A stretch of 64,000 bases of DNA, taken from NCBI GenBank assembly GCA_963844415.1, contig CAWJOA010000006.1, positions 678,494 through 742,493 of the forward strand. The letters are read 5' to 3'. The notes under the pieces are model-generated. The model saw nothing but the letters and a program-made list of their open reading frames with translations. It was not told where the DNA came from and made no database searches. Made by a program: the position numbers and the translations under genes. This document shows positions 13,349 through 29,179 of this stretch, one piece after another (positions within the stretch are counted from its first letter, which is position 1; each line of letters starts with the position of its first letter). The stretch is from an uncultured Chloroflexia bacterium. Lineage in GTDB: Bacteria; Chloroflexota; Limnocylindria; QHBO01.

Positions 13349-14605
13349 TCAGGCGTTCGGGTCGCGGACCGGATCGGTCTGGATGTCCACCTGCTCGCTG
13401 CCGTCCGCGCCACGCGAACGGGTCACGCGAATGTGCGGGTGCGTCTCGTCGCCGACCTGCTCCTTGGCCACGCTCACCATCACGTGCTCGTCGACGTCGC
13501 TGAGGCGCTCCTGGTCGGGGAGTGCCGCGTTGGGCACGGTGCCGAAGAGCGCGTAGCTGACGAAGACCCAGCCGACGGCGATCACCGGGATCCCGAACAG
13601 CGCGCCCCACACGCCGGCGACCTGCGCGCCGATGAGCAGCCCGACGAGCACGAGGATCGGGTGCAGCCCGAGGGCGTCACGCATGAGGCGCGGCTGGAGC
13701 CAGTTGACGATGACCGTCTGCGCCACCAGCAGGATGATCGCGACCGGCAGCGCGGAGCCGGTGAAGAGCGCCGCGCCGATGATCGGCGGGAGGAGGGCGA
13801 GCGGCGGGCCGAAGAACGGGATGAGCATCGCCAGCGCGCTGATCGTGGCCCACAGGAACAGGTACGGGATGCCGAAGACCGTCCCGACCACGGCGACGAG
13901 CAGCCCCATGACCACCGCGAGGATCAGCTGCGCGCGGAGGAATCCGCCGAAGGCGCGAACGGTGCTGCGCTCGAAGAGGTTGGCCTCGTCCCGGAAGCGC
14001 CGCGGCACGGTCGAGCGAAGCCGCGGAAGGATGCGCCGCGAGTCCATGAGCATGTACAGCGAGAGGAAGATGATCAGCAGCAGCGAGCCGAGCGCGGCGA
14101 TCGTGATGCCGGCGATCGCCTCCGCCTGGTCGACGATCTGGCGGCCGAGCAGCGCGACCTGCGCCTCGACGCCGGTGTACAGGTCGGTCAGGTCGACGCG
14201 CAGCCGTCCAAGCTCCCAGGTGGGCAGGGCATTGACGATGTCGTTGCGGGCCGGTCCGTATGCCCCCGCCAGCTCCGCGACCTGCTGGGTGATGGCCGCG
14301 CCGGTGTAGAAGAGCGCGAAGCCGAGCACGACGAGCACGAGCAGGTACGTCGCCACGACCACCGGCCCGCGTGGAGCATCGAGGCGATCCTCGAGCCACG
14401 CGACGAGCGGCGACATCACGAACGCCAGCAGCCACGCCAGGAAGAGGATGAGCAGGATCGAGGCAAACCCGCTGAGCACCCCGATCATCCGGTCCGCCAG
14501 CAGCAGCCCGAAGTAGAGGCTCCCGAGCGCGAGGAAGACGAGCAGCCAGCGGCGCTCGCGCGGACCGATGCCGCCCGTCCCGACCTCGACCTTCTGCTCG
14601 GTCAT
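13349..14605 (-). CDS. AI-2E family transporter (PerM/UPF0118-like membrane protein)
   Basis: ATG at 14605 (MTEQKVEV...) overlaps the trpS stop (ATGA). 418-aa polytopic protein with typical AI-2E architecture. It forms the C-terminal part of the 759-aa track ORF. Confidence 0.8.
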   Translation of the reverse strand: MTEQKVEVGTGGIGPRERRWLLVFLALGSLYFGLLLADRMIGVLSGFASILLILFLAWLLAFVMSPLVAWLEDRLDAPRGPVVVATYLLVLVVLGFALFYTGAAITQQVAELAGAYGPARNDIVNALPTWELGRLRVDLTDLYTGVEAQVALLGRQIVDQAEAIAGITIAALGSLLLIIFLSLYMLMDSRRILPRLRSTVPRRFRDEANLFERSTVRAFGGFLRAQLILAVVMGLLVAVVGTVFGIPYLFLWATISALAMLIPFFGPPLALLPPIIGAALFTGSALPVAIILLVAQTVIVNWLQPRLMRDALGLHPILVLVGLLIGAQVAGVWGALFGIPVIAVGWVFVSYALFGTVPNAALPDQERLSDVDEHVMVSVAKEQVGDETHPHIRVTRSRGADGSEQVDIQTDPVRDPNA

Positions 14606-15628
14606 CGGAGGTCGCGCGGCCCGATGCCGACCGCCGCGCGCACCTCGGCCATCGTGGCGTCCAGGATCGGCCGCACGCTGGCAGCGCCCGCGGCCAGGGT
14701 CTCCTCGACCACCGCGGGGTCGGCCGCGAGCTGGAGCCGGCGCTCTCGCATCGGCCGGAAGTGCTCGATGATTCGTTCGGCCAGCAGCTGCTTCGTCTCG
14801 ACGCAGCCGGTGCGTGCGGTGCGCTCGCCGTCCTGGATCTGGAGGTAGTCGCGCGCCGAAGAACCGATGCAGCTGGCACACGTTGCAGACCTCCGGTCGG
14901 CCAGGATCGGTCCGCTTGATGCGCAGCGGGTCGGTGACCATGCTCATCACGAGGCGCCGGATCTCGTCGGGCTCGGCGAAGATCGGGATCGTGTTGCCGG
15001 CGCTCTTGCCCATCTTCCGCACGCCATCGGTGCCGAGGACGACCGGGGCGTCGGTGTAGACCGCCTGCGGCTCGGGGAAGATGTCGCCGTAGCGTCGGTT
15101 GAAGGCACGAACCACCTCGCGGCTCAGCTCGAGGTGGGCCGCCTGGTCCTTGCCGACTGGCACGCGACTGGCCTTGTAGATGACGATGTCGGCGGCCTGG
15201 AGGATCGGGTAGTCGAGCAGGCCGAGGCTGTTCTCCTTGCCCTCTTCGCGGCCCTCCTTGTACGTCGGGTTCCGCTCGGCCCAGGCGACGGGCACGCAGG
15301 TGTTGAAGATCCACGCCAGCTCGGTGTGCTCGGGGAAGTCCGACTGCCGGATGAGCGCGCATCGGTTCGGGTCGAGGCCGACCGCGAGCAGGTCGAGCAC
15401 CATCTCGTGCGTCAGGTCGCGAAGCTGCTGCGGATCGTGGACCGTCGTGAGCGCGTGCAGGTCGACGATGCCGTAGATCGTCTCGTACTCGTCCTGCATG
15501 GCGACGTAGTTCACCTGGGCGCCGAGGTAGTTGCCGAGGTGCGACGCGCCCGATGGCTGGATCCCGCTGAAGACGCGCTCGCGGAGCGGTGGTTCAGGGG
15601 CGCGCGGAGCGTCGAGCGTCTGGCTCAT
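14602..15628 (-). pseudogene. trpS: tryptophan--tRNA ligase, interrupted by a single-base frameshift near 14850-14857
   Basis: Class I motifs SGIQPSGASHLGNY and KMGKSAGN. After ...CNVCQLHRFFGA the TrpS C-terminus continues in another frame (DYLQIQDGERTARTGCVETKQLLAERIIEHFRPMRERR...GIGPRDLR, stop 14602-14604). The span is 1027 nt (3n+1). Confidence 0.85.
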
Positions 15629-16484: not shown

Positions 16485-17416
16485 CAGCCGAGCTCCCTCC
16501 CGTCGGCCGGCTCGCCGGTGAGCTGCATGAACGCCTCTTCCAGCGAGCGCGACGTCTCGCGCAGCTCGACGAGGTCGACCCCGCCCTGGACCAGCGCCCG
16601 GGCGATCGCGGGGGCGTTGGCGGGATCGGTCGTCACGTCGAGCCCGTGGTCGGTCACCGTCACGGCCTCCACCCCGTCCACAGTGCGAAGGACCTCGGAG
16701 GCGCGATCGACCGGCGAGGCAACGACCCGCAGCCGTCCACCGGCGCCGCGCAGCTCGCCCATCGTCTCTTCGAGGAGGAGCCGGCCATGGTGGATGATGC
16801 CGATGCGGTCGCAGACCTGCTCCACCTCGGCAAGGAGGTGGCTCGACAGGAGCACCGTGCGTCCGGAGTCGGCGAGGTCGCGGATGATCCGGCGCATGGC
16901 GGCGATGCCGTACGGGTCGAGGCCGTTCGTCGGCTCGTCGAGGAGATAGAGGGCCGGGTCCTTCATGAACGCTGCCGCCAGCCCCAGGCGCTGCCGCATG
17001 CCGAGCGAGTAGCCCGACACCTTGTCACGCGCGCGATCGGCGAGGCCGACCCGCTCGAGGGCAGGATCGATCAGCGCCGGATCGGTGCCCGCATACCGCG
17101 CCAGGACGACGAGGTTGTTGCGGCCGGACAGGTACGGGTAGAACGCCGGCGCCTCGACGACAGCCCCGACGCGGCGCAGCGCATCGGGGGAGCCGGCCGG
17201 TGCGCCGAGGACCGAGGAGCTTCCCTCGGTCGGGCGGATCAGGCCGAGCACCAGCCGCAGGAACGTCGTCTTCCCGGCCCCGTTCGGGCCGATGAGCCCG
17301 TACACCTCGCCCGGTCGCAGCTGGAGGTTCACGTGGTCGAGCGCCAGGACGTGCGGACCGTAGCGTCGCGTGAGATCCCTGGTCTCGACGACCGCATCGG
17401 TGCCCATCGGTCGCAT
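16484..17416 (-). CDS. ABC transporter ATP-binding protein (ABC-2 exporter type)
   Basis: Walker A GPNGAGKTT, signature YSLGMRQRLGLAAAF, Walker B LLDEPTNGLD. Start placed at ATG 17416 (MRPMGTDAVVETRDL); ATG 17407 is also possible. The track ORF is extended to 17503. Confidence 0.9.
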   Translation of the reverse strand: MRPMGTDAVVETRDLTRRYGPHVLALDHVNLQLRPGEVYGLIGPNGAGKTTFLRLVLGLIRPTEGSSSVLGAPAGSPDALRRVGAVVEAPAFYPYLSGRNNLVVLARYAGTDPALIDPALERVGLADRARDKVSGYSLGMRQRLGLAAAFMKDPALYLLDEPTNGLDPYGIAAMRRIIRDLADSGRTVLLSSHLLAEVEQVCDRIGIIHHGRLLLEETMGELRGAGGRLRVVASPVDRASEVLRTVDGVEAVTVTDHGLDVTTDPANAPAIARALVQGGVDLVELRETSRSLEEAFMQLTGEPADGRELG

Positions 17417-17437
17417 TGTGCCATCCGGAGCCGGCGG

Positions 17438-17443
17438 TAGAAT
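17438..17443 (+). promoter_or_regulatory. -10-like hexamer TAGAAT 8 nt upstream of TTG 17452 (possible leaderless birA promoter)
   Basis: gccggcggTAGAATcgccggcgTTG, with GCCGGC hexamers on both sides as at polX. Confidence 0.4.
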
Positions 17444-17451
17444 CGCCGGCG

Positions 17452-18261
17452 TTGACGACCCTCGCCGACTTCGCGGAGCGCTGGGCCGATGCGGCGACCC
17501 CACACCGGCGGATCGGCCGCGCCCTCGAGGTCGTCCCCGTCATCGGCTCCACCAACGACCGTGCCCGTGAGCTCCTCGTCGAGGCCGACGGGGACGGCGC
17601 GGTCGTCGTCGCCGACGAACAGACCGCCGGCCGTGGCCGGCGCGGGCGGACCTGGCAGTCGCCGCCGGGGCGCAACCTGTACCTGAGCGTGGCGATTCGC
17701 CCCGCGCTGCCCGCCGCCGATGCCTGGCAGCTCGGGCTCGCGACCGCCCTGGCGGTGGCCGGCGCATGCGAGTCCGTGGCACCCGTCGCCCTCAAGTGGC
17801 CGAACGACGTCGTCGCGGCCGGCGACGGGCGCAAGGTCGGTGGGCTGCTGATCGAGACGATCGTCGAGGCCGATCGGCTGCGAGGTGCGGTGCTCGGGAT
17901 CGGGATCAACGTGAACTGGCGGCGTTCCGAGATGCCGGCCGAGCTCCGGGCGCGAGCGACCTCGCTGGCCGACCTGCGTGACGCATCGGTGGATCGCGAG
18001 GAGCTCCTCGGCCACCTCCTCGACGCGCTCGGCACCGAGGTCAGCGCCGTCGAGGCCGGGACATCGCCGCTCGAGCGCTACCGCGCCCGCTGCTCGACGC
18101 TCGGCGCGACGGTCGAGGTGCAGACGGCCGACGGCCCGGTCACGGGGCGCGCGCTCGACCTCGACCCGACGGGGGCGCTCGTCGTGGAGGACGCCGGGGG
18201 GCGTCGTCATGTCGTCTCGGGCGGCGAGGCGACGCAGGTTCGCGGGGCGGTGCCCGCGTGA
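17452..18261 (+). CDS. birA: biotin--[acetyl-CoA-carboxylase] ligase (group I, no HTH domain)
   Basis: Motifs VIGSTNDRAREL and ADEQTAGRGRRGRTWQSPPGRNLYLSV. The ORF is open from TTG 17416. TTG 17452 is preferred because TAGAAT sits 8 nt upstream. Confidence 0.85.
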   Translation: MTTLADFAERWADAATPHRRIGRALEVVPVIGSTNDRARELLVEADGDGAVVVADEQTAGRGRRGRTWQSPPGRNLYLSVAIRPALPAADAWQLGLATALAVAGACESVAPVALKWPNDVVAAGDGRKVGGLLIETIVEADRLRGAVLGIGINVNWRRSEMPAELRARATSLADLRDASVDREELLGHLLDALGTEVSAVEAGTSPLERYRARCSTLGATVEVQTADGPVTGRALDLDPTGALVVEDAGGRRHVVSGGEATQVRGAVPA

Positions 18262-18848
18262 CCGTCGATCCGCGGCGCGCGCCGCGACGCGGCGAGCCGG
18301 ATCCGGATCTCGCCGACGTCCGTGCCGCGCAGCTCGATCGTTCCGCATTCGGCGCCCTCTACCGCCGATACGTCGACCGCGTCTACGGATACTGCTTCTA
18401 TCTGCTCGGCGACCACCACGATGCCGAGGACGTCACCGAGCGCACGTTCGTCGCCGCGCTGGCGGCCATCGACGGCTACCGCGACGTGGGCGCCACGTTC
18501 CGCGCCTGGCTGTTCCGGATCGCCCACAACCAGCTGGCCAACGCGCTCCGGTCGCGGCAACGCCAGCGCGCGGCCTCGCTCGAGACCGTGCCCGAACCGG
18601 CCACGCGGACGGATCCCGCCGGCCAGTTCGGTCGTGCCGAAGACGCCCGCGGGCTGCGGCGGGCACTCGAGCAGCTGCCGGACGACCGTCGCCAGGTCGT
18701 CGTGCTTCGCTTCGTCGACGGCCTCTCGGCGCGCGAGATCGGTGCCGTGCTCGGCCGCAGCGAGGGCGCCGTGCGGGTGCTCCAGCACCGCGCCCTGCGT
18801 CAGCTCGCCGAGCTGCTCGCGCATGGAGGCTCGGGCCCGACGGTGTAA
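18258..18848 (+). CDS. ECF-type RNA polymerase sigma-70 family factor
   Basis: Region 2 (YRRYVDRVYGYCFYLLGDHHDAEDVTERTF...FRAWLFRIAHN) and region 4 (VVVLRFVDGLSAREIGAVLGRSEGAVRVLQHRALRQL). GTGA overlap with birA. Confidence 0.9.
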   Translation: MTVDPRRAPRRGEPDPDLADVRAAQLDRSAFGALYRRYVDRVYGYCFYLLGDHHDAEDVTERTFVAALAAIDGYRDVGATFRAWLFRIAHNQLANALRSRQRQRAASLETVPEPATRTDPAGQFGRAEDARGLRRALEQLPDDRRQVVVLRFVDGLSAREIGAVLGRSEGAVRVLQHRALRQLAELLAHGGSGPTV

Positions 18849-18878: not shown

Positions 18879-19229
18879 GTGATGACCATTCGTCCGACAA
18901 CCGCCGAGCGGCTGGACCGCGCGGTCGATGCGGTGCTGGCCGGCGCACCAGCGCCGGTCGCGGCGGCGTCCGCGGGCGTCGAACCGGCCGACCGTGCGCT
19001 CGTCGAGGCCGCCGCCACGCTGCGCGCCACCCTCGCGACGTCGATCGTCGCGCCCCGCTTCGAGGCGCGGCTCGGCGCCCGGCTCGCGGGCGTCGACGCG
19101 ACGCCCTGGGTCCTGCGCCATCCCGGCCGCCTGATCGTGACCGGCGCCGTCGGCTCGGCCGTCGGCGTCGGGGTCACCGCCTACGCCGTGTGGCGCAGCC
19201 GCTCCACCCATCGGCTCCTGCATCGGTAG
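18879..19229 (+). CDS. putative anti-sigma factor (single-pass membrane protein)
   Basis: 116-aa ORF directly after the ECF sigma gene, with one C-terminal TM segment (LIVTGAVGSAVGVGVTAYAVW). The call rests on position and topology only. Confidence 0.5.
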   Translation: MMTIRPTTAERLDRAVDAVLAGAPAPVAAASAGVEPADRALVEAAATLRATLATSIVAPRFEARLGARLAGVDATPWVLRHPGRLIVTGAVGSAVGVGVTAYAVWRSRSTHRLLHR

Positions 19230-19245: not shown

Positions 19246-20265
19246 TTGCCGATCAAGTTCCCGTTCAGCCGCCGCGCGGCACCGTCCGATGCGTGGACCA
19301 AGTGCCCGACCTGCGACGCCCAGGTCTTCAACAAGCAGCTCGAGCGCACCCTGCGACTGTGCCCGTCGTGCGGCCACCACTTCCGGATGTCCATCGGCGA
19401 GCGGATCGACATGCTGCTCGACGCGAACACGTTCGAGGAGCGCGACGCCGGGATCGAGTCGGTCGACCGCCTCGGCTTCCACGACGCCCGCCCGTATCCC
19501 GACCGGCTCGAGGCGGCGCGGGTGAAGACCGGGCTGCGCGACGCGGTGGTCTGGGGCGTCGGCGAGATCGAGGGGATCCGGGTCGCGATCGCCATCTTCG
19601 ACTTCCGGTTCATGGGCGGCAGCATGGGCAGCGTCGTCGGCGAGAAGCTGGCGCGCTGCTTCGAGACGGCGCTCGACGAGCGGATCCCGGCCATCGTCGT
19701 CAGCGCCTCGGGCGGCGCGCGGATGCAGGAGGGAACGCTGTCGCTCATGCAGCTGTCGAAGACGACCGCGCCCCTCGTCCGCCTGGACGAATCGGGCGTC
19801 CCGTTCATCGCCGTCCTGACCGATCCGACCACCGGCGGCGTGCTGGCCAGCTTCGCCAGCCTCGGGGACGTCATCCTCGCCGAGCCGAAGGCGCTCATCG
19901 GGTTCGCCGGCGCGCGCGTCGCCTCCGACACCGTCGGCGAGCAGCTGCCGGAGGGCTTCCAGACCGCGGAGTTCCTGCTCGCGCACGGCTTCGTCGACGC
20001 GATCGTGCCCCGCTCGGAGCTGCGCGTGGCGCTCGGCCGGCTCCTCCGCCTCCTGCCCGTCCCGGTGGCCGCGGACGCGGCGGCGGACGACGCGGACCGG
20101 TCGTGGGGCCCGATCGGCGCCCTCTCCGGGCTCGCCGAGCGCCTGGGCGGCGCGGTGAGCGAGACGATCGGCATCGACGTCGAGCCGCAATCCGGCGGCA
20201 ACGGCCGCCGCCCGGCCGACGCGACCCCGGAGCCGGCGGTCGCCGACGAGGAGACACGGCCGTGA
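19246..20265 (+). CDS. accD: acetyl-CoA carboxylase carboxyltransferase beta subunit
   Basis: N-terminal Zn ribbon CPTCDAQVFNKQLERTLRLCPSCGHH, then FDFRFMGGSMGSVVGEK and VSASGGARMQEG. TTG start with GGAGG 9 nt upstream. Confidence 0.95.
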   Translation: MPIKFPFSRRAAPSDAWTKCPTCDAQVFNKQLERTLRLCPSCGHHFRMSIGERIDMLLDANTFEERDAGIESVDRLGFHDARPYPDRLEAARVKTGLRDAVVWGVGEIEGIRVAIAIFDFRFMGGSMGSVVGEKLARCFETALDERIPAIVVSASGGARMQEGTLSLMQLSKTTAPLVRLDESGVPFIAVLTDPTTGGVLASFASLGDVILAEPKALIGFAGARVASDTVGEQLPEGFQTAEFLLAHGFVDAIVPRSELRVALGRLLRLLPVPVAADAAADDADRSWGPIGALSGLAERLGGAVSETIGIDVEPQSGGNGRRPADATPEPAVADEETRP

Positions 20266-21254
20266 GCGAGACCGTCGTGCATGCCGACGCGCCGAGTCCG
20301 GAGGCGGTCGAGGCCGCCTGGCGGCACGTGCAGCTGGCCAGACACCCGCAGCGGCCGCGCACCCTCGATCTCGTGCCGCAGATCTTCACCGGGTTCTTCG
20401 AGCTGCATGGCGACCGGGCATTCGGCGACGACCCGGCCATCGTCGGCGGGCCGGCCCTGCTCGATGGGCGGCCGGTGATGATCGTCGGGCACCAGAAGGG
20501 GACCGATACCGAGTCGAATATCGCGCGAAACTTCGGCTCGCCCTACCCGGAGGGCTTCCGCAAGGCCCAGCGGCTCATGCGGCTGGCCGACAAGCTCGGG
20601 ATCCCGATCGTCACGTTCCTCGACACGGCCGGCGCGTTCCCAGGACCCGCGGCCGAGGAGCGCGGCCAGGCGGAGGCGATCGCCTCGAGCATCAAGCTGA
20701 TGACCGGGCTCCAGGTCCCGATCGTCGTCGTCGTGCTCGGCGAGGGCGGCTCGGGAGGCGCGCTCGCCATCGGCGTCGGCGACGTGGTCCTCTCGCTCGA
20801 GAACGCGGTCTACGCGGTGATCAGCCCCGAGGGCGCGTCGTCGATCCTGTGGCGCTCCCGTGACGAGGCACGGACGGCGGCCGCCGCGATGCGGATGACG
20901 GCCGAGGACCAGGTCGAGCTCGGCGTCGTCGACGCGATCATCCCGGAGCCCGGCGAGGGCGCGCACGCCGACCCCGCGGCGACCGCGCGAGCCATCCACG
21001 AGGCCATCCTTTCGGCGCTCCGCGACCTCTCCGGGCTCGACACCGCCGAGCTGCTCGCCAGGCGCTATGCTCGGCTGCGCGGCGCGGGCGCCTACCTCGA
21101 GACCGGGGCGGCCTCGAGCCGCCCACCGGTGGAGCCGTCGCTGCGCCACCGGATCGGCCGGATCCTCCGTCTGCCCGGCGTCCCGGCCCGGCCGCGCTGG
21201 AGCGAGATCTGGCCGAGTGCCGACGACGACTCCGAGAGCGAGAGGGGCGCATGA
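20262..21254 (+). CDS. accA: acetyl-CoA carboxylase carboxyltransferase alpha subunit
   Basis: GTG 20262 overlaps the accD stop (GTGA). Motifs FGSPYPEGFRKAQRLMRLADKLGIPIVTFLDTAGAFPG and VLGEGGSGGALAIGVGD. The 653-aa track ORF is a false extension. Confidence 0.95.
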   Translation: MSETVVHADAPSPEAVEAAWRHVQLARHPQRPRTLDLVPQIFTGFFELHGDRAFGDDPAIVGGPALLDGRPVMIVGHQKGTDTESNIARNFGSPYPEGFRKAQRLMRLADKLGIPIVTFLDTAGAFPGPAAEERGQAEAIASSIKLMTGLQVPIVVVVLGEGGSGGALAIGVGDVVLSLENAVYAVISPEGASSILWRSRDEARTAAAAMRMTAEDQVELGVVDAIIPEPGEGAHADPAATARAIHEAILSALRDLSGLDTAELLARRYARLRGAGAYLETGAASSRPPVEPSLRHRIGRILRLPGVPARPRWSEIWPSADDDSESERGA

Positions 21255-21718
21255 CCGATACCGACCGCGCCCTCGAGGCGATCAGCGCCGCCGCCGAGCG
21301 GCTCGTGCCCGAGCTCACCGAGCGTCTGCGCCGCCACGGACTCGGCGAGATCGAGGTCGCGCACGGCGACCTGCGCCTGCGCGTTGCCGCCAGCCCCGGA
21401 ACCGTGGCGTCGAAGCCCGCCGAGGCGACCGCCGGCGGCGAGGCTCCGGCCGCACCGGCCGCCACGACCGAGGCACACCCGAGCATGGTCGGGGTCGCAT
21501 CGCCGGCCGTCGGCTTCTTCGTCTACGCCGATGGCCTCGGCCCGGGGCTCGAGGTGAGCAAGGGCGACGAGCTCGGGCACGTCGAGATGCTCGGCGTGCG
21601 CCACGACGTCCGCGCTCCGCGCGGGGGGACGGTCGGCCACCTCGTCGCCGAGAGCGGCGAGGCGGTCGAGTACGGGCAGGTCGTGCTCGAGCTCGAGACG
21701 GCCGAGGCGGTTCGATGA
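21251..21718 (+). CDS. BCCP-like biotinyl-domain protein lacking the biotin-acceptor lysine
   Basis: 155 aa with ATGA overlaps at both ends. It aligns to the AccB at 25786-26259, but EAMKLFNEI is replaced by VEMLGVRHDV, with Gly115 (GGC, 21593-21595) at the Lys position. Confidence 0.8.
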   Translation: MTDTDRALEAISAAAERLVPELTERLRRHGLGEIEVAHGDLRLRVAASPGTVASKPAEATAGGEAPAAPAATTEAHPSMVGVASPAVGFFVYADGLGPGLEVSKGDELGHVEMLGVRHDVRAPRGGTVGHLVAESGEAVEYGQVVLELETAEAVR

Positions 21719-22653
21719 CGCTGGCGCTGCTGTTCAGCCCGCAGGGCTCCCAGGCGGTCGGGATGGGCCGCGAGCTCGCCGATCACTCGCCGGCAGCCGC
21801 CGCGGCCTTCGCCGAGGCCGATGCCACGCTCGGCTGGTCGGTCTCCGAGACGTGCTGGAACGGCCCCGCCGACCGCCTCGACGACACGCGCCAGACCCAG
21901 CCGTGCCTGCTCACGACGTCCGTCGCCGCCTACCGCGCGCTCGCCGAGGCGGCCGACCCGGCGGCGGTGGTCGTGGCCGGGCACTCCGTCGGCGAGTACG
22001 CCGCGCTCGTGGCCGCCGCGGTCCTCGAGCTGCCGGCCGCGCTGCGCCTCGTCGCGCGTCGTGCCGAGCTCATGGCCGGCGCCGGTGAGGGCGGCATGGC
22101 CGCCGTCCTGGGCCTCGATCGCGATGCCGTCCAGGCGGTCGTCGACAGCCTCGCGCGTCCGACGGAGCTGGTCGTCGCGAACGACAACGCTCCCGGGCAG
22201 GTGGTGGTCTCTGGGAGCCTCGACGCGCTCGAGCGTGTCGGCGAGGGGATGCGCGCCGCCGGCGCGCGCCGCGTCCTGCGGCTGCCGGTGTCCGGCGCCT
22301 TCCACTCGCCGCAGATGGCCGGCGTCGCGGAGCAGCTGGCCGACGCGTTCGAGGCCGAGACCTGGAGCGACGCGCGCGTGCCGGTGATGAGCAACGTCAG
22401 CGCCGAGCCGCTCACCGACGCACCCCGCATTCGCGCCCTGCTCGCCGAGCAGGTGCGTTCCCCGGTCGAGTGGGTCGCGTGTGTCCGGCGCATGGTCGAC
22501 GACGGCGTCGACGTGATGGTGGAGTGCGGCGCCGGCGCCGCGCTGGTGGGCATGGTCAGGCGCATCGCCCCCGAGGTGGAGACCGCGACGGTGACCGATG
22601 CCGCGAGCCTCGCATCGGCGGTCGAGCTGCTCGGCCAGCGGGTGACGGCCTGA
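21715..22653 (+). CDS. fabD: malonyl CoA-ACP transacylase
   Basis: [18 protein letters not shown], active-site [10 protein letters not shown], and SGAFHSPQM. Confidence 0.95.
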
Positions 22654-24013
22654 TGGCGGTCGGCAAGATCCTCATCGCCAACCGCGGCGAGATCGCGGTG
22701 CGCATCCTGCGCGCGTGCCGCGACCTCGGGATCCCGGCCGTCGTCGCCTTCAGCGAGGCCGACCGCGACTCGCTGGCGGTGCGCCTGGCGGACGAGGCGA
22801 TCTGCATCGGTCCGGCCGAGGCGCGCAAGAGCTACCTGAACCAGCCCGCGGTCATCAGTGCGGCCATGATCACCGGCTGCGACGCGGTCCACCCCGGCTA
22901 CGGCTTCCTCAGCGAGGACGCGAGCTTCGCCGAGGCCTGTGCGGCGCACGAGCTGACCTTCATCGGTCCGCGACCGGAGGTCCTCGAGCGGTTCGCCAGC
23001 AAGTACGCGGTGCGGCGCATGCTGGCCGCGAACGGCCTGCCCACCGTGCCGGGCAGCCGCGGGATCGTCACCGACCTAGCCGATGCGCTCGAGCAGGCCG
23101 GCGAGGCCGGCTACCCGGTGCTCCTCAAGCCCTCGGCCGGCGGTGGGGGCCGCGGGATGCGCCTCGTGCGCTCGCCGCGCGAGATGGAGACGTCGCTGCC
23201 CCTCGCCCGGTCGGAAGCGCAGGCCGCCTTCGGCGACGACAGCGTCTACTTCGAGCGCTGGATCGAGGAGTCGCGCCACGTCGAGGTGCAGGTCGTCGTC
23301 GACCGCCACGGCAACGGCGTCCATCTCGGCGAGCGCGACTGCAGCGTGCAGCGCCGGCACCAGAAGATCATCGAGGAGGGCCCGTCACCGGCGATGAACG
23401 ACGCGAGCCGCGAGCGACTGCGCGACCTCGCCATCCGCAGCGTCGTGGCGGCCGGCTACGAGAGCGTGGGGACCCTCGAGTTCCTCCTCGACGCCGAGGG
23501 CAACTTCTACTTCATCGAGATCAACTGCCGCATCCAGGTCGAGCACCCGGTCACCGAGGCGCTGACCGGCGTCGACCTCATCGCCGAGCAGATCCGGATC
23601 GCGGCCGGCGAGCCGCTGACCCTGCGGCAGGACGCGATCACCTTCCGCGGCCACGCGATCGAGTTCCGCATCAACGCCGAGGACCCCGGCGACAACTTCT
23701 CGCCCCAGACCGGCGAAATCGACTGGCTGCAGCTGCCCGGTGGTCCCGGGGTGCGCGTCGACACCCACCTCTACCCGGCTACGAGGTGCCGCCCTTCTAC
23801 GACAGCCTGCTCGCCAAGCTGATCGTGTGGGGCGACACGCGCGAGATCGCGCTGGCGCGCTCCCGTCGAGCCCTCGCCGAGTTCGAGGTCGGCGGAGTGC
23901 GCACGAACATCCCGTTCCACCGTGGCATCGTCGACAACGAAGCCTTCCTCGACGCGCGCGTCAGCACGAACCTGCTCGACCGGGTCGGGCCGGCCGCCTT
24001 CGTGCCAAGCTAG
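22653..24013 (+). pseudogene. accC: acetyl-CoA carboxylase biotin carboxylase subunit, interrupted by a 1-nt deletion near 23775-23779
   Basis: [46 protein letters not shown]. After ...VRVDTHLYP the sequence continues in the +1 frame as [26 protein letters not shown]... to stop 24013. Observed ccggct where ccgggc would be in frame. The span is 1361 nt (3n+2). Confidence 0.9.
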
Positions 24014-24036: not shown

Positions 24037-24528
24037 ATGACGACCGACACCCAACCGACCCTTGGCCTGCCGCTCGAGGCGGCCGAGATCATGCGCATCC
24101 TCCCGCATCGGTATCCGTTCCTGCTCGTCGACCGCGTCGTCGAGCTCGAGCCGGGCAAGCGGGCCGTCGGGATCAAGCAGGTGAGCGCCAATGAGCCGCA
24201 GTTCACCGGCCACTTCCCCGGCCGGCCCATCATGCCCGGCGTGCTCATGGTCGAGGCGCTGGCCCAGACGGCCGGGATCGCGGTCCTCACCCTCGAGGAG
24301 TACCGCGGCAAGATCGGCCTCTTCGCCGGCATCGACGAGTGTCGCTTCCGGCGGCTGGTCGCGCCGGGCGACACGCTGCGCCTCGAGGTGACCGTCGAGA
24401 AGCTGCGTGGCATGTTCGGCCGAGTGAAGGCGGTGGCGACCGTCGACGGCGAGGTCGCCGTCGAGGCCACCCTCAGCATCATCATCCCGCGCGACCAGGA
24501 GATCGCCGGAGCCCAGACCGATGCGTGA
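24037..24528 (+). CDS. fabZ: 3-hydroxyacyl-ACP dehydratase
   Basis: [19 protein letters not shown] and [22 protein letters not shown]. Confidence 0.95.
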
Positions 24529-25789
24529 CGGCGAGCGCCGCGTGGTCGTCACCGGGATGGGCGCGCTGACGCCGATCGGCAACGACGTGCCCGCCTTCTG
24601 GGACTCGCTCGTGAACGGGCGCAGCGGGATCACCCGGATCACGTCCTTCGACCCGGCCAGGACCGCGGCGAAGGTCGCCGGCGAGATCAAGGACTGGGAC
24701 GCCGAGTCGGTGATGCCGAAGAAGGAGATCCGGCGCAACGACCGCTACGTGCACTACGCCTGGGGCGCGACCGTCGAGGCGATGGCCGATGCCGGGCTCC
24801 CGAACCCGATCGACGACGACGCGCTCGCGTGGCGCACCGGCGCGATCATCGGCTCGGGGATCGGCGGCATCAACACGATGATCCGCGACATCATCGAGGC
24901 CAACGAGCACGGCATCGAGCGCGTGGGGCCGTTCCTCGTGACCGCCCTCATCCCGGACATGGGAGCCGGCTACGTCGCGATCTACGCGAACGCGCGTGGC
25001 CCGAACTACGCGACCGTCAGCGCGTGCTCCAGCGCGAACCACGCGATCGGCGCCTCCGCGAACTACATCCGGCGCGGCGACGCGGACGTGATGATCGCCG
25101 GTGGCGCGGAGGCGGGTATCGGCGAGATCCCGGTCGCTGCGTTCAGCGCGATGCGCGCGCTCTCGACGCGCTGCAACGACAACCCCGAGAAGGCGTCGCG
25201 ACCGTTCGACGCCGAGCGCGATGGCTTCGTGATGGCCGACGGCGCCGGCATCCTCGTCCTCGAGGCGCTCGACCACGCACGCGCACGCGGCGCGACGATC
25301 CACGCCGAGCTGGTCGGCTACGGCGCCACCGACGACGCCTCGCACATCACCCTGCCCGCACCCGGTGGCCGTGGCGCGGTCGAGTCGATGCGCGTCGCGA
25401 TCGCCGACGCGGGGCTGGAGCCCGCCGACATCGGCTACATCAACGCCCACGGCACGTCGACGCCGCCGAACGACAAATCCGAGACCGCCGCCATCAAGAC
25501 GCTGTTCGGGGAGCAGGCCTACCGGGTCCCGGTAAGCAGCACGAAGTCGATGACCGGCCACCTCATGGGCGCGGGTGGCGGGGTCGAGGCGGTCGCCACG
25601 ATCCAGACCCTGAAGACCGGGATCATCCCGCCCACGATCAACCTCGACCACCCCGACCCCGAATGCGATCTCGACTACGTCCCGCACGAGGCACGGCAGG
25701 TCGAGGCCATCGACGTCGGCATGAGCAACAGCTTCGGCTTCGGCGGTCACAACGCCACCCTTGTCTTCCGCAGGTACGACGGCGCGTGA
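24521..25789 (+). CDS. fabF: beta-ketoacyl-ACP synthase II
   Basis: [13 protein letters not shown], active-site [35 protein letters not shown]. Confidence 0.95.
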
Positions 25790-26259
25790 GCGATCAGCCG
25801 GAACCGATCCTGGCCGCGGTCGACCTGCTGGCGCCGGCGTTCGCCGACGCCGGGCTCGACGAGCTCGAGCTGTCGGTCGGCGACCTCCACGTGCGCCTGG
25901 CGAAGCCTCGCGCGGCTGCGCCGATCGCCGCGGCGGTCCCCGCCGAGACGCCTGCCGCCATCCCCGTGCCGGCACCGTCCACCGATGGGCTGACGCCGTT
26001 CGGCGAGCCGGCACCGGGCATGCGCTTCGTCAGCGCACCGCTGACCGGCGTCTGGTACCCCGCCCCGTCGCCCGGCGCCCGTCCCTATGTCAACGAGGGC
26101 GACGAGATCGCCAACGGCCAGGTCATCGGCCTCATCGAGGCGATGAAGCTATTCAACGAGATCAAGTCGGATGCCTCCGGCCGAATCACCCGCGTCCTCG
26201 TCGAGAACGGGACGCTCGTGAAGCGGAAGCAGCCGCTGCTGGAAGTCGACCCGCGATGA
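25786..26259 (+). CDS. accB: acetyl-CoA carboxylase biotin carboxyl carrier protein (canonical)
   Basis: GTG 25786 overlaps the fabF stop (GTGA). Canonical biotinylation motif GLIEAMKLFNEIKSDASGRI. Confidence 0.9.
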   Translation: MSDQPEPILAAVDLLAPAFADAGLDELELSVGDLHVRLAKPRAAAPIAAAVPAETPAAIPVPAPSTDGLTPFGEPAPGMRFVSAPLTGVWYPAPSPGARPYVNEGDEIANGQVIGLIEAMKLFNEIKSDASGRITRVLVENGTLVKRKQPLLEVDPR

Positions 26260-26281: not shown

Positions 26282-27364
26282 ATGAATACGCCGACGGGCA
26301 CGAATGCCCTGATCACCGGATGGGGGATGTACGCGCCGTCGCGCGTGATGACGAACGACGAGCTGGCAAAGATGGTCGACACGAGCGACGAGTGGATCGT
26401 CAGCCGGACCGGCATCCGCGCGCGCCGGATCGCGGCCGATGACGAGACGACGACGTCCCTGAGCGTGAATGCCGCGCGGGACGCGCTGGCGGTGGCCGGA
26501 CTCGACCCCGCCGAGCTCGATCTCGTCATCGTCGGCACCTGCACGCCGGACTACCCGCTGCCCGCCACGGCCGTCCTGATCGCCACGGAGCTGGGCGCGA
26601 CACGCGCGGCCGGCTTCGACCTCCAGGCCGCGTGCTCGGGCTTCCTGTACGGCTACGCGGTCGGCACGAGCTTCATCCGCAGCGGGATGTACCGCAACGT
26701 GCTCGTCATCGGTGTCGAGGTGCTCAGCCGCTTCCTGGACTGGACCGATCGCAGCACCTGCGTGCTGTTCGGCGACGGCGCCGGCGCGGTCCTGCTCCAG
26801 GCGTCGGACCAGCCTGGCGGGGTGCTGGGCATCGACCTGTTCAGCGACGGGACCGGCTGCGAGGGGATCATCATGCCGGCCGGCGGGGCGATCAACCCGC
26901 CCTCGCACGAGACGGTCGACGCGCGGATGCACACGATCAAGATGCTCGGCAGCGAGGTCTACAAGTACGCCACCCGCCAGATGGGCGAGTCGGCGCTGGC
27001 GGCCCTCGGCCAGGCCGGGCTGACCGTCGACGACATCGACCAGTTCGTCTTCCACCAGGCCAACCTGCGCATCATCAACAGCGTCCAGAAGCAGTTCGGC
27101 ATCCCCGACGAGAAGACCTACGTGAACATCGAGAAGTACGGCAACACGAGCGCCGCATCGGTGCCGATGGCGCTCGCCGAGGCCGTCGCGGCCGGCCGGA
27201 TCAAGCAGGGCGACCGCATCCTCATGGTCGCCTTCGGCGCCGGCTACACCGCTGGCGGCGCGGTCGTCGAGTGGACCGCCGACCCGGCGCGCGCCTTCCT
27301 CGCCCCCGGCGAGCAGACGCGGATGGGGCAGCCGCAGCGGACCCTCGAGCGCGCCGGCGTCTGA
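26282..27364 (+). CDS. fabH: beta-ketoacyl-ACP synthase III
   Basis: TSDEWIVSRTGIRARR, catalytic Cys in QAACSGFLYG, His in FHQANLRII, Asn in YGNTSAASVP. Confidence 0.95.
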   Translation: MNTPTGTNALITGWGMYAPSRVMTNDELAKMVDTSDEWIVSRTGIRARRIAADDETTTSLSVNAARDALAVAGLDPAELDLVIVGTCTPDYPLPATAVLIATELGATRAAGFDLQAACSGFLYGYAVGTSFIRSGMYRNVLVIGVEVLSRFLDWTDRSTCVLFGDGAGAVLLQASDQPGGVLGIDLFSDGTGCEGIIMPAGGAINPPSHETVDARMHTIKMLGSEVYKYATRQMGESALAALGQAGLTVDDIDQFVFHQANLRIINSVQKQFGIPDEKTYVNIEKYGNTSAASVPMALAEAVAAGRIKQGDRILMVAFGAGYTAGGAVVEWTADPARAFLAPGEQTRMGQPQRTLERAGV

Positions 27365-28119
27365 TGTTCGACCTCACCGGCAAGACCGCGCTCGTCACCG
27401 GTGGCAGCCGCGGGCTCGGCCGCGCGATCGCGCTCGCCTTCGCCGGTCAGGGCGCCGACATGGCGATCAACTACCGCGGCAACGCCGACGCCGCCGAGGA
27501 GGTCGCCGCCGAGATCTCGGGACTCGGGCGACGCGCGGTCACGATCCAGGGCGACACCGCCGCCGGGCGCGAGGCGGCCGAGGCGATCGTGAAGGCCGCG
27601 CTCGACGGCCTCGGATCGGTCGACATCCTCGTCAACAACGCCGGCATCACCCGCGACAACCTGCTCATGCGCATGGACGCCGACGAGTGGGACGCGGTGA
27701 TCGACACCAACCTGTCCGGCCCGTTCTGGATGACGCGCGCCATCGCGCGACCGATGCTCAAGGCCCGATCCGGGCGCATCATCAACATGTCCAGCGCCGC
27801 CGGGCGGATGGGGAATCCCGGCCAGGCGAACTACGCCGCCGCCAAGGCGGGGCTCATCGGCCTCACGAAGACGACCGCTCGCGAGCTCGCCAGCCGCGGG
27901 ATCACCTGCAACGCCATCGCCCCCGGGCTCATCACCACCGATCTCACCGCCGACCTGCCGGAGGCCGCCACCGAGGCGCTGACCGCGTTGACGCCGCTCG
28001 GCTACGTCGGCTCGGTGGAGGACGTCGCCGCCGCGGCCGTCTACTTCGCCTCCGACGAGGCGCGCTACGTCACCGGCCAGGTGCTCGGGGTCGACGGCGG
28101 CATCGTCATGGGGAGCTGA
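27364..28119 (+). CDS. fabG: 3-oxoacyl-ACP reductase (SDR)
   Basis: ATG overlaps the fabH stop (TGATG). TGGSRGLGRAIA, NNAGITRD, and SSAAGRMGNPGQANYAAAKAG. Confidence 0.95.
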   Translation: MFDLTGKTALVTGGSRGLGRAIALAFAGQGADMAINYRGNADAAEEVAAEISGLGRRAVTIQGDTAAGREAAEAIVKAALDGLGSVDILVNNAGITRDNLLMRMDADEWDAVIDTNLSGPFWMTRAIARPMLKARSGRIINMSSAAGRMGNPGQANYAAAKAGLIGLTKTTARELASRGITCNAIAPGLITTDLTADLPEAATEALTALTPLGYVGSVEDVAAAAVYFASDEARYVTGQVLGVDGGIVMGS

Positions 28120-28302: not shown

Positions 28303-28734
28303 ATGCTTTCCCTGCGCACCATCCTGCGCCCGACGCGCATCGTCGACGCGCACTGCGACATTCCGTGCGGCATCTACGACCCCGAGCAGGCCCGCATCGA
28401 GGCCGAGTCGTGCCTCCGCATCATCGAGAAGCACGACGCCAGCGACGACGCCCTCTTCAAGGCCCGCTGCATCGGGGTCAAGGAGGAGCGTGCCGAGCTC
28501 GTCAAGCACCACCTCGACGTCCTCTGGCACGACTACTTCAAGCCCGAGCACCTCGAGACGTACCCCGACCTGCACGAGACGTTCTGGAAGGCCACGAAGC
28601 AGGCCTCGAAGGTGAAGCAGTCGCTCGACGCGGGTGCCGCCAAGGAGCTGCTCTCGATGATCGACACGATCGACGAGATGTGGAAGGCCACCGGCGGACT
28701 CGAGAAGACCCGGGTCAGCGGACGACCCTCCTGA
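28303..28734 (+). CDS. sodN: nickel superoxide dismutase precursor
   Basis: Ni-hook HCDIPCGIYDP follows a 16-aa propeptide (MLSLRTILRPTRIVDA). Strong RBS GAAGGAG 5 nt upstream. Confidence 0.9.
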   Translation: MLSLRTILRPTRIVDAHCDIPCGIYDPEQARIEAESCLRIIEKHDASDDALFKARCIGVKEERAELVKHHLDVLWHDYFKPEHLETYPDLHETFWKATKQASKVKQSLDAGAAKELLSMIDTIDEMWKATGGLEKTRVSGRPS

Positions 28735-28741
28735 GAGACCG

Positions 28742-29179
28742 ATGCGCCCGCGGGCGCTGATCTGGCTCGCTCTCGGCGTCGCCGCGGCCACGGCCGCTCG
28801 GCGCCGGCTCGACGTGGTCGAGGTCCGCGGCCGCTCGATGGCACCGACGCTGCTTCCAGGCGATCGGCTCCTCGTCGTTCGGGCCGGGCCGCGCCTCGGT
28901 GACGTCGTCCTCGCTCCGGACCCGGGCATGCCGTCACGCGAGCTCATCAAACGCGTGGCATCCGTCGACGGCGATGCCGTCGACCTGTGTGGTGACAATC
29001 CCGTTGCGAGCACGAACGCCAACGTGGCAACGGGCAATGTCCGTTGGCGGGCCGTCCTGCGGTACTGGCCACCGGCCCGCGCGACGGCCCGGCTCGGGAG
29101 AGCACCGCGACTCGATCCGATCGTCGAGGGCGGCGAGCCGGCCTGTGCCGTTCCCGAGGCGCTGATCGCGGGGCCCTGA
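28742..29179 (+). CDS. sodX: S26-family signal-peptidase-like NiSOD maturation protease
   Basis: Directly downstream of sodN, with the S26 serine motif GRSMAPTLLPGD and KRV. Confidence 0.8.
   Translation: MRPRALIWLALGVAAATAARRRLDVVEVRGRSMAPTLLPGDRLLVVRAGPRLGDVVLAPDPGMPSRELIKRVASVDGDAVDLCGDNPVASTNANVATGNVRWRAVLRYWPPARATARLGRAPRLDPIVEGGEPACAVPEALIAGP

What the first reader, a model, noticed from the sequence alone, without database searches (positions are those of the whole stretch)
21251..21718. BCCP paralogue without the biotinyl-lysine embedded in the acc/fab operon
A 155-aa ORF sits between accA and fabD with ATGA overlaps at both ends. Its C-terminal half aligns without gaps to the canonical AccB encoded 4 kb downstream (25786-26259). 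Where AccB reads IEAMKLFNEIKSDASG, this protein reads VEMLGVRHDVRAPRGG. The acceptor Lys is Gly115 (GGC at 21593-21595), and turning GGC into a Lys codon needs at least two base changes (three to AAG), so this is not a simple miscall. The N-terminal part also resembles AccB (GL.EIEV/LEL...GDL..RL). One transcription unit therefore encodes BirA, BC, both CT subunits, one biotinylatable carrier and one non-biotinylatable look-alike. Non-biotinylatable BCCP look-alikes (BADC proteins) are known negative regulators of plant heteromeric ACCase. I know of no characterised bacterial counterpart.
Basis: partly seen in the sequence, partly recalled or inferred. Interest (0 to 1): 0.7.

Follow-up and report, generated by a model that had tools for sequence, protein, structure and literature searches.

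The report
Lysine-less BCCP paralogue in bacterial ACC operon
A soil Chloroflexota bacterium (class Limnocylindria) encodes, inside its acetyl-CoA carboxylase/fatty-acid operon, a well-conserved copy of the biotin carrier protein that cannot carry biotin; it looks like a bacterial counterpart of the plant BADC proteins that tune fatty-acid synthesis.

Summary
ORF 21251-21718 (+) encodes a 155-aa, full-length BCCP homologue. It has an N-terminal helix plus beta-hairpin, an Ala/Pro linker, and a confidently modelled biotinyl-domain fold (closest structure: E. coli BCCP 1BDO). The hairpin-tip lysine is Gly115 (GGC), giving E-M-L-G where BCCP has E-A-M-K, and the "thumb" region is 6 residues shorter.

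This is not a sequencing error. Gly is present in 75/75 species-level orthologues and in about 140 of the 150 best 50%-identity cluster representatives. Both folded domains evolve under purifying selection (dN/dS 0.06-0.2) while the linker is near neutral.

The gene overlaps accA and fabD by ATGA. It always lies in a birA-ECF sigma-accD-accA-X-(fabD)-accC-fabZ-fabF-accB-fabH-fabG cluster that also encodes a canonical Lys-bearing AccB. In sister lineages it sits directly upstream of accC, the classical accB position.

Real plant BADC sequences also have Gly at the lysine position, but common descent with BADC is unresolved.

Best reading: a non-catalytic, BADC-like subunit of the heteromeric ACC of Limnocylindria. 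Whether it aids assembly or inhibits is unknown. Library searches found no described bacterial counterpart, and public annotation calls it AccB or "hypothetical".

The parts
21251..21718 (+). Gene X: 155-aa Lys-less BCCP paralogue (stop codon included)
   Evidence: ORF and translation. Pfam PF00364 scores 25.7 bits. Best PDB sequence match is full-length E. coli BCCP 4HR7_B, E 1e-16. Conserved in 79 species-level genomes.
21251..21388 (+). X N-terminal domain (aa 1-46): helix 2-29 plus beta-hairpin 33-46, the BCCP-type alpha/beta/beta motif
   Evidence: AF2 pLDDT is about 85-90 in two independent runs. It aligns with the AccB and E. coli BCCP N-termini. dN/dS is 0.06-0.2 against close relatives.
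21389..21487 (+). X Ala/Pro-rich flexible linker (aa 47-79)
   Evidence: pLDDT is below 50. It varies in sequence and length among orthologues. dN/dS is 0.5-1.36.
21488..21715 (+). X C-terminal pseudo-biotinyl domain (aa 80-155)
   Evidence: AF2 pLDDT is 96-98. Foldseek top hit is 1BDO, TM 0.82, rmsd 1.8 A. dN/dS is 0.06-0.17. It is 6 residues shorter than BCCP in the thumb region.
21593..21595 (+). GGC codon for Gly115, at the hairpin tip where BCCP carries the biotinyl-lysine
   Evidence: Sequence. It lies between strands 107-113 and 116-121 of the model. It aligns with E. coli K122 and with AccB K121. Gly is found in 75/75 orthologues.
17416..18261 (+). birA: biotin protein ligase with no N-terminal HTH detected
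   Evidence: Pfam BPL_LplA_LipB plus BPL_C.
18258..18848 (+). ECF-type sigma factor inside the cluster
   Evidence: Pfam Sigma70_r2/r4. It holds the same position in distant loci L080-L086.
19246..20265 (+). accD (carboxyltransferase beta, with Zn ribbon)
   Evidence: Pfam Zn_ribbon_ACC plus Carboxyl_trans.
20262..21254 (+). accA (carboxyltransferase alpha); its GTG start overlaps the accD stop (GTGA)
   Evidence: Pfam ACCA, 378 bits. Start and junction.
21715..22653 (+). fabD (malonyl-CoA:ACP transacylase)
   Evidence: Pfam Acyl_transf_1.
22653..24013 (+). accC (biotin carboxylase), split here by a 1-nt deletion near 23774-23777
   Evidence: Pfam domains are split over two frames. A C-run is one base short compared with L001, L002 and L004.
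24037..24528 (+). fabZ
   Evidence: Pfam FabA-like. Start.
24521..25789 (+). fabF
   Evidence: Pfam ketoacyl-synt N and C.
25786..26259 (+). accB: canonical BCCP with E-A-M-K (Lys121 = AAG at 26146-26148)
   Evidence: Pfam scores 53.8 bits and TIGR00531 scores 103 bits. The Lys is conserved in all true AccB orthologues.
26282..27364 (+). fabH
   Evidence: Pfam ACP_syn_III.
27364..28119 (+). fabG
   Evidence: Pfam adh_short. Start.

Best explanation
Gene X encodes a complete but catalytically dead paralogue of the biotin carboxyl carrier protein.

What it keeps and what it has lost. It keeps the three BCCP modules: an N-terminal alpha/beta/beta oligomerisation and BC-interaction motif, a flexible Ala/Pro linker, and a C-terminal biotinyl-domain fold. 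The acceptor lysine is replaced by an invariant glycine at the hairpin tip, and the thumb is shortened. It therefore cannot be biotinylated and cannot shuttle CO2.

How it is expressed. It is co-translated with the carboxyltransferase subunits and, in sister lineages, with biotin carboxylase. The operon also makes BirA and a normal AccB.

Proposed mechanism. [quoted passage not shown] It would enter the complex through BCCP-type contacts: by mixing into the oligomer formed by BCCP N-termini and/or by occupying BCCP docking sites on BC/AccD. In that way it would set how the enzyme assembles and how many productive holo-BCCP positions it has. That makes it a bacterial functional analogue of plant BADC.

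Shown here: identity, fold, loss of the lysine, selection, and conserved operon position.

Inferred: physical membership of the ACC complex and the sign of the effect. Because X is constitutively and stoichiometrically coupled to the catalytic genes, I lean towards a structural or assembly ('glue', stoichiometry-setting) role rather than a conditional inhibitor.
For: - Full-length BCCP homology: 4HR7_B E 1e-16; co-resident AccB 98.4% probability over the N and C domains.
- Confident biotinyl-domain model with Gly115 at the hairpin tip. Foldseek top hit is 1BDO with TM 0.82.
- Gly is invariant in 120/120 close homologues and 75/75 species orthologues, and in about 140 of the 150 best representatives of the wider family.
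- No lysine is conserved across the family.
- Purifying selection acts on both folded domains (dN/dS 0.06-0.2), while the linker is near neutral.
- Synteny inside the acc/fab cluster is invariant in 79 species-level genomes and in the divergent lineages L080-L086, where X overlaps the accC start.
- Start and stop codons overlap on both sides.
- A canonical AccB is present in every locus whose sequence reaches the accB position.
- The E. coli BCCP N-terminal alpha/beta/beta motif is proposed to form the central beta-barrel of the ACC tube, and BCCP also occupies a non-catalytic site on BC/AccD (PMC11160672).
- Plant BADCs are Lys-less BCCP look-alikes that bind BC/BCCP (PMC11926652). The one algal BADC-like protein measured is stoichiometric with the CT subunits (PMC13585458).
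- Real BADC sequences carry Gly at the same position.
Against: - No experiment, expression data or complex prediction supports binding. The organisms are uncultured.
- The thumb is shortened by 6 residues. From general knowledge of E. coli BCCP it matters for function, and the NMR paper proposes it as the BADC contact site on BCCP (PMC11926652). Docking could therefore differ from BCCP.
- Operon position indicates an association with ACC but cannot separate activator, inhibitor or scaffold roles.
- Specific relatedness to BADC is not resolved (NJ bootstrap 35%).
Confidence: 0.6

Rival explanations
1. X is a pure competitive negative regulator, following the original BADC model. It occupies BCCP sites on biotin carboxylase, or in BCCP oligomers, and lowers ACC flux. 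The effect may depend on conditions such as pH or the X:AccB ratio.
For: - Plant BADCs are reported to inhibit ACC in E. coli and Arabidopsis and to compete with BCCP for BC (Salie 2016 and Ye 2020, as summarised in PMC11926652 and PMC13585458).
- X retains the BCCP N-domain and a hairpin of conserved shape.
- Conserved His residues (H110, H118) flank the hairpin tip in the core clade.
Against: - X is translationally coupled to the catalytic subunits, and no separate promoter or regulator was detected. An inhibitor made in fixed ratio with its target has little regulatory leverage unless it is controlled post-translationally.
- The inhibitor model itself is disputed for BADC.
Confidence: 0.2
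2. X is a regulatory decoy or autoregulator rather than an ACC subunit. Its BCCP-type N-terminus would repress operon expression, as E. coli AccB residues 1-68 do. Alternatively its pseudo-biotinyl domain would titrate BCCP-binding partners such as PII or BirA.
For: - The E. coli AccB N-terminus alone down-regulates accBC, and AccB is bound by GlnB (PMC11160672).
- Plant PII binds BADC (PMC12706156).
- The X N-domain is the most BCCP-like part and is strongly conserved.
Against: - The C-terminal domain is at least as strongly conserved as the N-domain, which an N-terminus-only regulator would not need.
- BirA here has no HTH domain, so the E. coli-type BirA repressor switch is absent.
- No PII gene is linked to the cluster.
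Confidence: 0.1
3. X still acts as a carrier but uses another residue or cofactor, for example modification of Lys104.
For: Lys104 is present in 72/75 core-clade orthologues.
Against: - Position 104 is A, S, R, Q, G and other residues in the wider family, and no Lys is invariant.
- Residue 104 is not at the hairpin tip in the model. The only other Lys, K55, lies in the variable linker.
- As general background, biotin and lipoate ligases need the lysine at the beta-turn tip.
Confidence: 0.03
4. X is a sequencing artefact or a decaying pseudogene kept only by chance.
For: The same window has a 1-nt homopolymer deletion in accC, so the assembly is not error-free.
Against: - Three nucleotide changes separate GGC from a Lys codon.
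- Gly is conserved in hundreds of independent assemblies.
- dN/dS is about 0.1 in both domains.
- The frame is intact and the start and stop are coupled to the neighbouring genes in 79 species.
Confidence: 0.01

Closest known systems
Plant/algal BADC proteins (biotin attachment domain-containing; Arabidopsis BADC1-3)
   Same: - Both are BCCP homologues without the biotinyl-lysine.
- In both, Gly replaces Lys at the hairpin tip: BADC reads L-D-Q-F-G, X reads V-E-M-L-G or V-D-V-L-G.
- They share a G-E-A-V-x-Y-G stretch near the C-terminus.
- Both coexist with a true BCCP and a heteromeric ACC.
- Profile-profile probability is 97.3%, E 3e-11.
   Different: - X is bacterial and operon-encoded, whereas BADC is nuclear-encoded and plastid-targeted.
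- BADC keeps a long basic insert in the thumb region (RGRTVKGKKQPP), while X has a shortened loop.
- Common descent is unresolved (35% NJ bootstrap).
- BADC has experimental binding and activity data; X has none.
Canonical AccB/BCCP (E. coli AccB, PDB 1BDO and 4HR7; the co-resident AccB at 25786-26259)
   Same: X has the same three-module architecture and fold. In sister lineages X occupies the classical accB position directly upstream of accC.
   Different: - X has E-M-L-G where BCCP has E-A-M-K.
- The thumb is 6 residues shorter.
- TIGR00531 scores 32.5 bits against a cutoff of 115.2.
- The X profile scores generic BCCPs higher (E. coli 65 bits, P0253 81 bits) than the co-resident AccB (36-52 bits). 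X is therefore not a recent copy of that AccB.
Non-catalytic 'glue' subunits of actinobacterial acyl-CoA carboxylases (epsilon subunits, e.g. AccE/PccE)
   Same: Both are small non-catalytic proteins encoded with carboxylase genes. The epsilon subunits are reported to help holoenzyme assembly and activity (cited in PMC11926652).
   Different: The epsilon subunits are not BCCP homologues (general knowledge; not tested here). X is a full BCCP paralogue.
Chloroflexus aurantiacus BC1 (fused BC-BCCP)
   Same: This is another Chloroflexota ACC with unusual BCCP organisation. Part of its BCCP region forms an eight-stranded beta-barrel that links BC dimers (PMC11077971). That shows a structural role for BCCP segments.
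   Different: Its BCCP domain is biotinylated on Lys553 and fused to BC. X is free-standing and lacks the lysine.

Membership tests
Pfam PF00364 Biotin_lipoyl (barrel-sandwich hybrid domain) | Score at or above the Pfam gathering threshold | tested here: met
   25.7 bits against a cutoff of 22.1, over aa 97-148.
Pfam PF00364 Biotin_lipoyl (barrel-sandwich hybrid domain) | Flattened beta-barrel fold with a hairpin that presents the modified residue | tested here: met
   AF2 pLDDT 96-98 for aa 80-150. Foldseek top hit 1BDO, TM 0.82, rmsd 1.8 A.
AccB/BCCP of acetyl-CoA carboxylase (TIGR00531) | Biotinyl-lysine in an (E)-A-M-K motif at the hairpin tip | tested here: not met
   The motif is E-M-L-G. 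Gly115 aligns with E. coli K122 and AccB K121. Gly is found in 75/75 orthologues.
AccB/BCCP of acetyl-CoA carboxylase (TIGR00531) | Equivalog HMM score at or above the curated cutoff | tested here: not met
   32.5 bits against a cutoff of 115.2.
AccB/BCCP of acetyl-CoA carboxylase (TIGR00531) | N-terminal alpha/beta/beta motif plus Ala/Pro linker plus C-terminal domain | tested here: met
AccB/BCCP of acetyl-CoA carboxylase (TIGR00531) | 'Thumb' protrusion between strands 2 and 3 | tested here: not met
   X is 6 residues shorter than E. coli BCCP and the co-resident AccB in this region. It has a conserved short D-G-L-G-P-G loop instead.
Plant BADC | BCCP-like protein that lacks the biotinylation motif and lysine | tested here: met
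   The same Lys-to-Gly replacement is seen in real BADC sequences.
Plant BADC | Coexists with a true BCCP and a heteromeric (four-subunit) ACC | tested here: met
   accD, accA, accC and accB lie in the same cluster.
Plant BADC | Common descent with BADC (monophyly to the exclusion of BCCPs) | tested here: inconclusive
   An NJ tree on 75 columns groups BADC with X, but with only 35% bootstrap support. The hhalign X-BADC score (74) is slightly above AccB-BADC (65).
Plant BADC | Binds BC and/or BCCP and changes ACC activity | not testable with these tools
   This needs pull-downs and reconstituted enzyme assays.
Plant BADC | Not biotinylated in vivo | not testable with these tools
   Inferred from the absence of any conserved Lys. 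It needs a streptavidin blot or mass spectrometry.

The most novel reading that the evidence does not exclude
Limnocylindria run a five-subunit bacterial ACC. X is an obligate, stoichiometric 'structural BCCP' descended from the original accB of the accB-accC pair, while a second, divergent AccB does the carboxyl shuttling.

Lys-to-Gly BCCP look-alikes have now been seen in three settings: this class, a low-GC bacterium with a tandem double pseudo-domain AccB (P0245), and plant BADC. That would mean heteromeric ACCs in general need BCCP copies for architecture as well as for catalysis. It would also provide a simple bacterial system for settling the BADC 'inhibitor versus glue' dispute.
Probability: 0.3. 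Interest if true: 0.75.

Novelty: new variant of a known kind. Interest (0 to 1): 0.6.

Why it matters
Acetyl-CoA carboxylase catalyses the committed step of fatty-acid synthesis. It is an antibiotic target and a metabolic-engineering target.

- Until now, non-biotinylatable BCCP look-alikes have been a plant and algal peculiarity, and their role (inhibitor or assembly factor) is still disputed.
- A compact, operon-encoded bacterial analogue is present in 79 species-level genomes assigned mostly to one abundant soil and freshwater class. It gives a five-gene system (plus birA) that could be reconstituted in E. coli to test what a 'dead' carrier does to complex assembly and flux.
- There is also an annotation problem. 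Pipelines label the protein 'acetyl-CoA carboxylase biotin carboxyl carrier protein' or 'hypothetical', and neither Pfam nor NCBIfam has a dedicated model. Genomes therefore appear to have two accB genes when only one can work as a carrier.

Tried and rejected
- **Sequencing error or pseudogene.** Rejected on conservation, dN/dS and the three-nucleotide distance from a Lys codon.
- **Alternative acceptor lysine.** Rejected. K104 is not conserved in the wider family and is not at the hairpin tip; K55 is in the variable linker.
- **The 653-aa ORF 19293-21254 as a fused AccD-AccA.** Rejected. accD lies in another frame (19246-20265) and accA starts at the GTG at 20262.
- **Recent duplication of the co-resident accB.** Not supported. 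The X profile scores E. coli BCCP and another Lys-type BCCP higher than its own genome's AccB.
- **Terminator-like hairpin at 21502-21514 inside X.** This is at chance level (1 found, 1.4 expected) and lies in the conserved SPAVGFF coding stretch.
- **First AF2 run with a shallow alignment.** It gave a poor C-domain model. It was repeated with 97 diverse sequences.
- **Papers not held.** The original BADC paper (PMC5059801) and the 2024 paper on the evolution of ACC regulatory subunits were not available. Whether those authors looked at prokaryotes could not be checked.
- **Taxonomy of the low-GC P0245 contig.** Cluster look-ups returned no names and a metagenome scan found no relatives.
- **Model coordinates.** They were not available to scripts, so conserved residues could not be mapped onto the surface.
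Full report
**1. The observation**

The window is about 70-75% G+C. ORF 21251-21718 on the + strand encodes 155 aa. Its ATG overlaps the stop of accA (GCATGACC), its stop overlaps the ATG of fabD (CGATGACG), and a GAGAGGGG stretch precedes the start.

Pfam places aa 97-148 in Biotin_lipoyl at 25.7 bits, above the 22.1 cutoff. BLASTP against the canonical AccB encoded at 25786-26259 gives E 5e-10 over both N- and C-terminal parts. A profile-profile comparison gives 98.4% probability, E 6e-15. VEMLGVRHDVRAPRGG lines up with IEAMKLFNEIKSDASG. Gly115 is GGC at 21593-21595, and AccB Lys121 is AAG at 26146-26148.

- The C-terminal halves need one 6-residue gap in the 'thumb' region. Only residues from about 96 to the end align without gaps, at 12/55 identities.
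- GGC is three substitutions from both Lys codons, not two.

**2. Gene map**

The cluster runs from birA to fabG on the + strand:

| Gene | Coordinates |
|---|---|
| birA | 17416-18261 |
| ECF sigma factor | 18258-18848 |
| accD | 19246-20265 |
| accA | 20262-21254 |
| X | 21251-21718 |
| fabD | 21715-22653 |
| accC | 22653-24013 |
| fabZ | 24037-24528 |
| fabF | 24521-25789 |
| accB | 25786-26259 |
| fabH | 26282-27364 |
| fabG | 27364-28119 |

Most junctions overlap (GTGA, ATGA, ATGA, TGATG, GTGA, TGATG), and no promoter-like site was found inside the cluster. The 653-aa ORF upstream of X is an open-frame artefact; accD and accA are separate genes. accC is split by a single-base deletion in a C-run (TACCC-GGC here, TACCCCGGC in relatives). 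This is probably a long-read homopolymer error.

**3. It is real and selected**

- The 120 closest database homologues (70-100% identity) all read G-H-V-E-M-L-G-V-R-H-D-V-R-A-P-R.
- A scan of one genome per species found 79 loci, nearly all labelled Candidatus Limnocylindria or Chloroflexota. A few carry other bin labels on short contigs.
- In 75 full-length orthologues the residue is Gly in 75/75. The true AccBs of the same loci have Lys in 57/57.
- Against close relatives, dN/dS is 0.06-0.2 in the N-domain and 0.06-0.17 in the C-domain, but 0.5-1.36 in the linker. AccB gives 0.08-0.28 and the fab genes 0.09-0.35. This is the pattern of a functional two-domain protein with a flexible tether.

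**4. A larger family**

A profile search of 1.84 billion representatives gave 232 hits at E <= 1e-10. About 140 of the best 150 have Gly at the lysine position, with the core motif G-x-V-(D/E)-x-L-G-V-(R/P)-x-x-V-x-A-P-x-x-G. Only two of the 150 are ordinary Lys-type BCCPs.

These wider members are 170-330 aa with long low-complexity linkers, and a profile search of the 90%-identity collection returned 3132 proteins at E <= 1e-5. The few that carry a source name are labelled Limnocylindrales or Chloroflexota. Five such loci all read birA-ECF sigma-?-accD-accA-X-accC-fabZ-metallophosphoesterase-fabF-accB-fabH-fabG. There X abuts or overlaps the accC start, which is the position accB normally holds in accBC operons. 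The Lys-bearing AccB sits between fabF and fabH.

The X profile scores E. coli BCCP (65 bits) and another Lys-type BCCP (P0253, 81 bits, itself upstream of an accC-sized gene) higher than the co-resident AccB (36-52 bits). I infer that X descends from an ordinary accB upstream of accC and lost its lysine after a second carrier was available. This is an inference, not a resolved phylogeny.

**5. Structure**

With a 97-sequence alignment, AlphaFold2 gives:
- pLDDT 96-98 for residues 80-150, a beta-sandwich;
- about 85-90 for residues 2-46, with a helix at 2-29 and strands at 33-38 and 41-46;
- below 50 for the linker at 50-75.

Gly115 lies between strands 107-113 and 116-121, at the hairpin tip. 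The best structural match is the E. coli BCCP biotinyl domain 1BDO (TM 0.82, rmsd 1.8 A); the Arabidopsis BCCP1 domain is also matched. By sequence profile, the best PDB match is full-length E. coli BCCP in the BC-BCCP complex 4HR7 (E 1e-16). That alignment starts in the N-terminal motif, places Gly on K122, and shows 6 extra E. coli residues in the thumb region.

No lysine is conserved across the family. The window protein has only K55 (linker) and K104, and K104 is replaced by many residues in the wider family.

**6. Mechanism**

Shown: X is a full-length BCCP paralogue that cannot accept biotin. It is under selection and is locked into the ACC/FAS operon with translational coupling to CT and, in sister lineages, to BC.

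Inferred: X is a non-catalytic subunit of ACC.

Three published observations make this plausible:
- In E. coli the first ~30 residues of BCCP form an alpha/beta/beta motif. This motif is modelled as a beta-barrel in the centre of the active ACC tube. BCCP also sits at a non-catalytic site on BC and the AccD N-terminus, and BCCP is thought to be needed in excess over the catalytic subunits (PMC11160672).
- In Chloroflexus, a BCCP segment forms a beta-barrel that links BC dimers (PMC11077971).
- Plant BADCs, the only described Lys-less BCCP look-alikes I could find, bind BC/BCCP. They are described either as inhibitors or as a 'glue' that promotes BC-BCCP assembly (PMC11926652). The algal BADC-like protein is stoichiometric with CT (PMC13585458).

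X keeps exactly the parts needed for such contacts. Because it is made in fixed proportion with the catalytic subunits, I favour an architectural or stoichiometry-setting role. A competitive-inhibitor role remains a live alternative. An autoregulator or decoy role is less likely, because the C-domain is as constrained as the N-domain and BirA here lacks a DNA-binding domain.

**7. Comparison with BADC**

Real plant BADC fragments retrieved here read G-Y-L-D-Q-F-G-T-E-L-P-V. When aligned to X and to E. coli BCCP, the Gly falls on the lysine position. X and BADC also share G-E-A-V-x-Y-G.

- Profile-profile scores are X-BADC 74 (E 3e-11) and AccB-BADC 65 (E 7e-10).
- A neighbour-joining tree on 75 columns puts BADC next to X, but with 35% bootstrap support.

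X therefore works like, and looks like, a BADC. Membership of the BADC family by descent is undecided; convergence on Gly at a tight turn is equally possible.

**8. Novelty**

- Full-text searches for bacterial BADC-like, BCCP-like or non-biotinylated BCCP paralogues returned only plant papers.
- Neither Pfam nor NCBIfam has a dedicated model. The best NCBIfam hit is TIGR00531 at 32.5 bits against a cutoff of 115.2.
- Sources name the protein 'acetyl-CoA carboxylase biotin carboxyl carrier protein' or 'hypothetical protein'.
- I could not read the two papers most likely to have surveyed prokaryotes, so prior mention cannot be excluded.

I rate this a new (bacterial, operon-encoded) variant of a known kind, with interest 0.6.

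**9. Side observation relevant to generality**

One representative, P0245, comes from a 30% G+C contig with Firmicute-like synteny (dnaE-[P0245]-accC-asp23...nusB...plsX-fabH). It has a BCCP N-terminal motif followed by two tandem biotinyl-like domains, and both read (R/K)-A-L-G where E-A-M-K is expected. This looks like an independent loss of the lysine in an accB-position gene. I could not establish its taxonomy or find relatives.

Noticed in passing
window 23770-23780 (accC, 22653-24013): accC is frameshifted by a single missing base in a C-run: TACCC-GGC here, TACCCCGGC in L001, L002 and L004. Pfam domains are split between ORFs 22470-23822 and 22715-24013. This is most likely a long-read homopolymer error rather than a real pseudogene, since all relatives are intact.
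   Followed up: yes
L087 8001-8702 (protein P0245; also L088): On a 30% G+C contig with Firmicute-like synteny, the gene directly upstream of accC encodes a 233-aa protein. It has a BCCP N-terminal motif and two tandem biotinyl-like domains, both with (R/K)-A-L-G instead of E-A-M-K. No other biotinyl-domain gene lies within 8 kb. This may be an independent Lys-less AccB lineage. Taxonomy is unknown and a metagenome scan found no relatives.
   Followed up: partly
window 18258-18848 and 18879-19229; L080-L086: An ECF-type sigma factor and a following small ORF with no Pfam hit (a possible anti-sigma factor) sit between birA and accD. The position is conserved in distant family members. A sigma factor embedded in an acc/fab operon is unusual and unexplained.
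   Followed up: partly
L080-L085, between fabZ and fabF: The divergent lineages carry a 248-aa metallophosphoesterase gene inside the fab cluster and lack fabD between X and accC. The window lineage has fabD there and no metallophosphoesterase.
   Followed up: no
window 13349-15628 (-): One 759-aa ORF combines a class-I tRNA synthetase (W/Y) domain (aa 18-256) with an AI-2E family transporter domain (aa 381-691). It is probably two genes joined by read-through or by another indel in the assembly.
   Followed up: no
window 28303-28734 and 28742-29179 (+): A nickel superoxide dismutase (Sod_Ni) followed by an S26/S24-type peptidase lies immediately downstream of fabG. The peptidase is the expected maturation protease.
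   Followed up: no
L015, L020, L029, L035, L036, L044, L054: Several loci have the same synteny and 55-70% identical X, but their bins are labelled Steroidobacteraceae, Binatia, Methylomirabilota, Solirubrobacterales or Angelobacter. They are probably mis-binned Limnocylindria contigs.
   Followed up: no
database entries P0002-P0120, P0116: JGI and NCBI annotate X orthologues as 'acetyl-CoA carboxylase biotin carboxyl carrier protein'. These genomes therefore appear to have two accB genes although only one has the lysine.
   Followed up: yes
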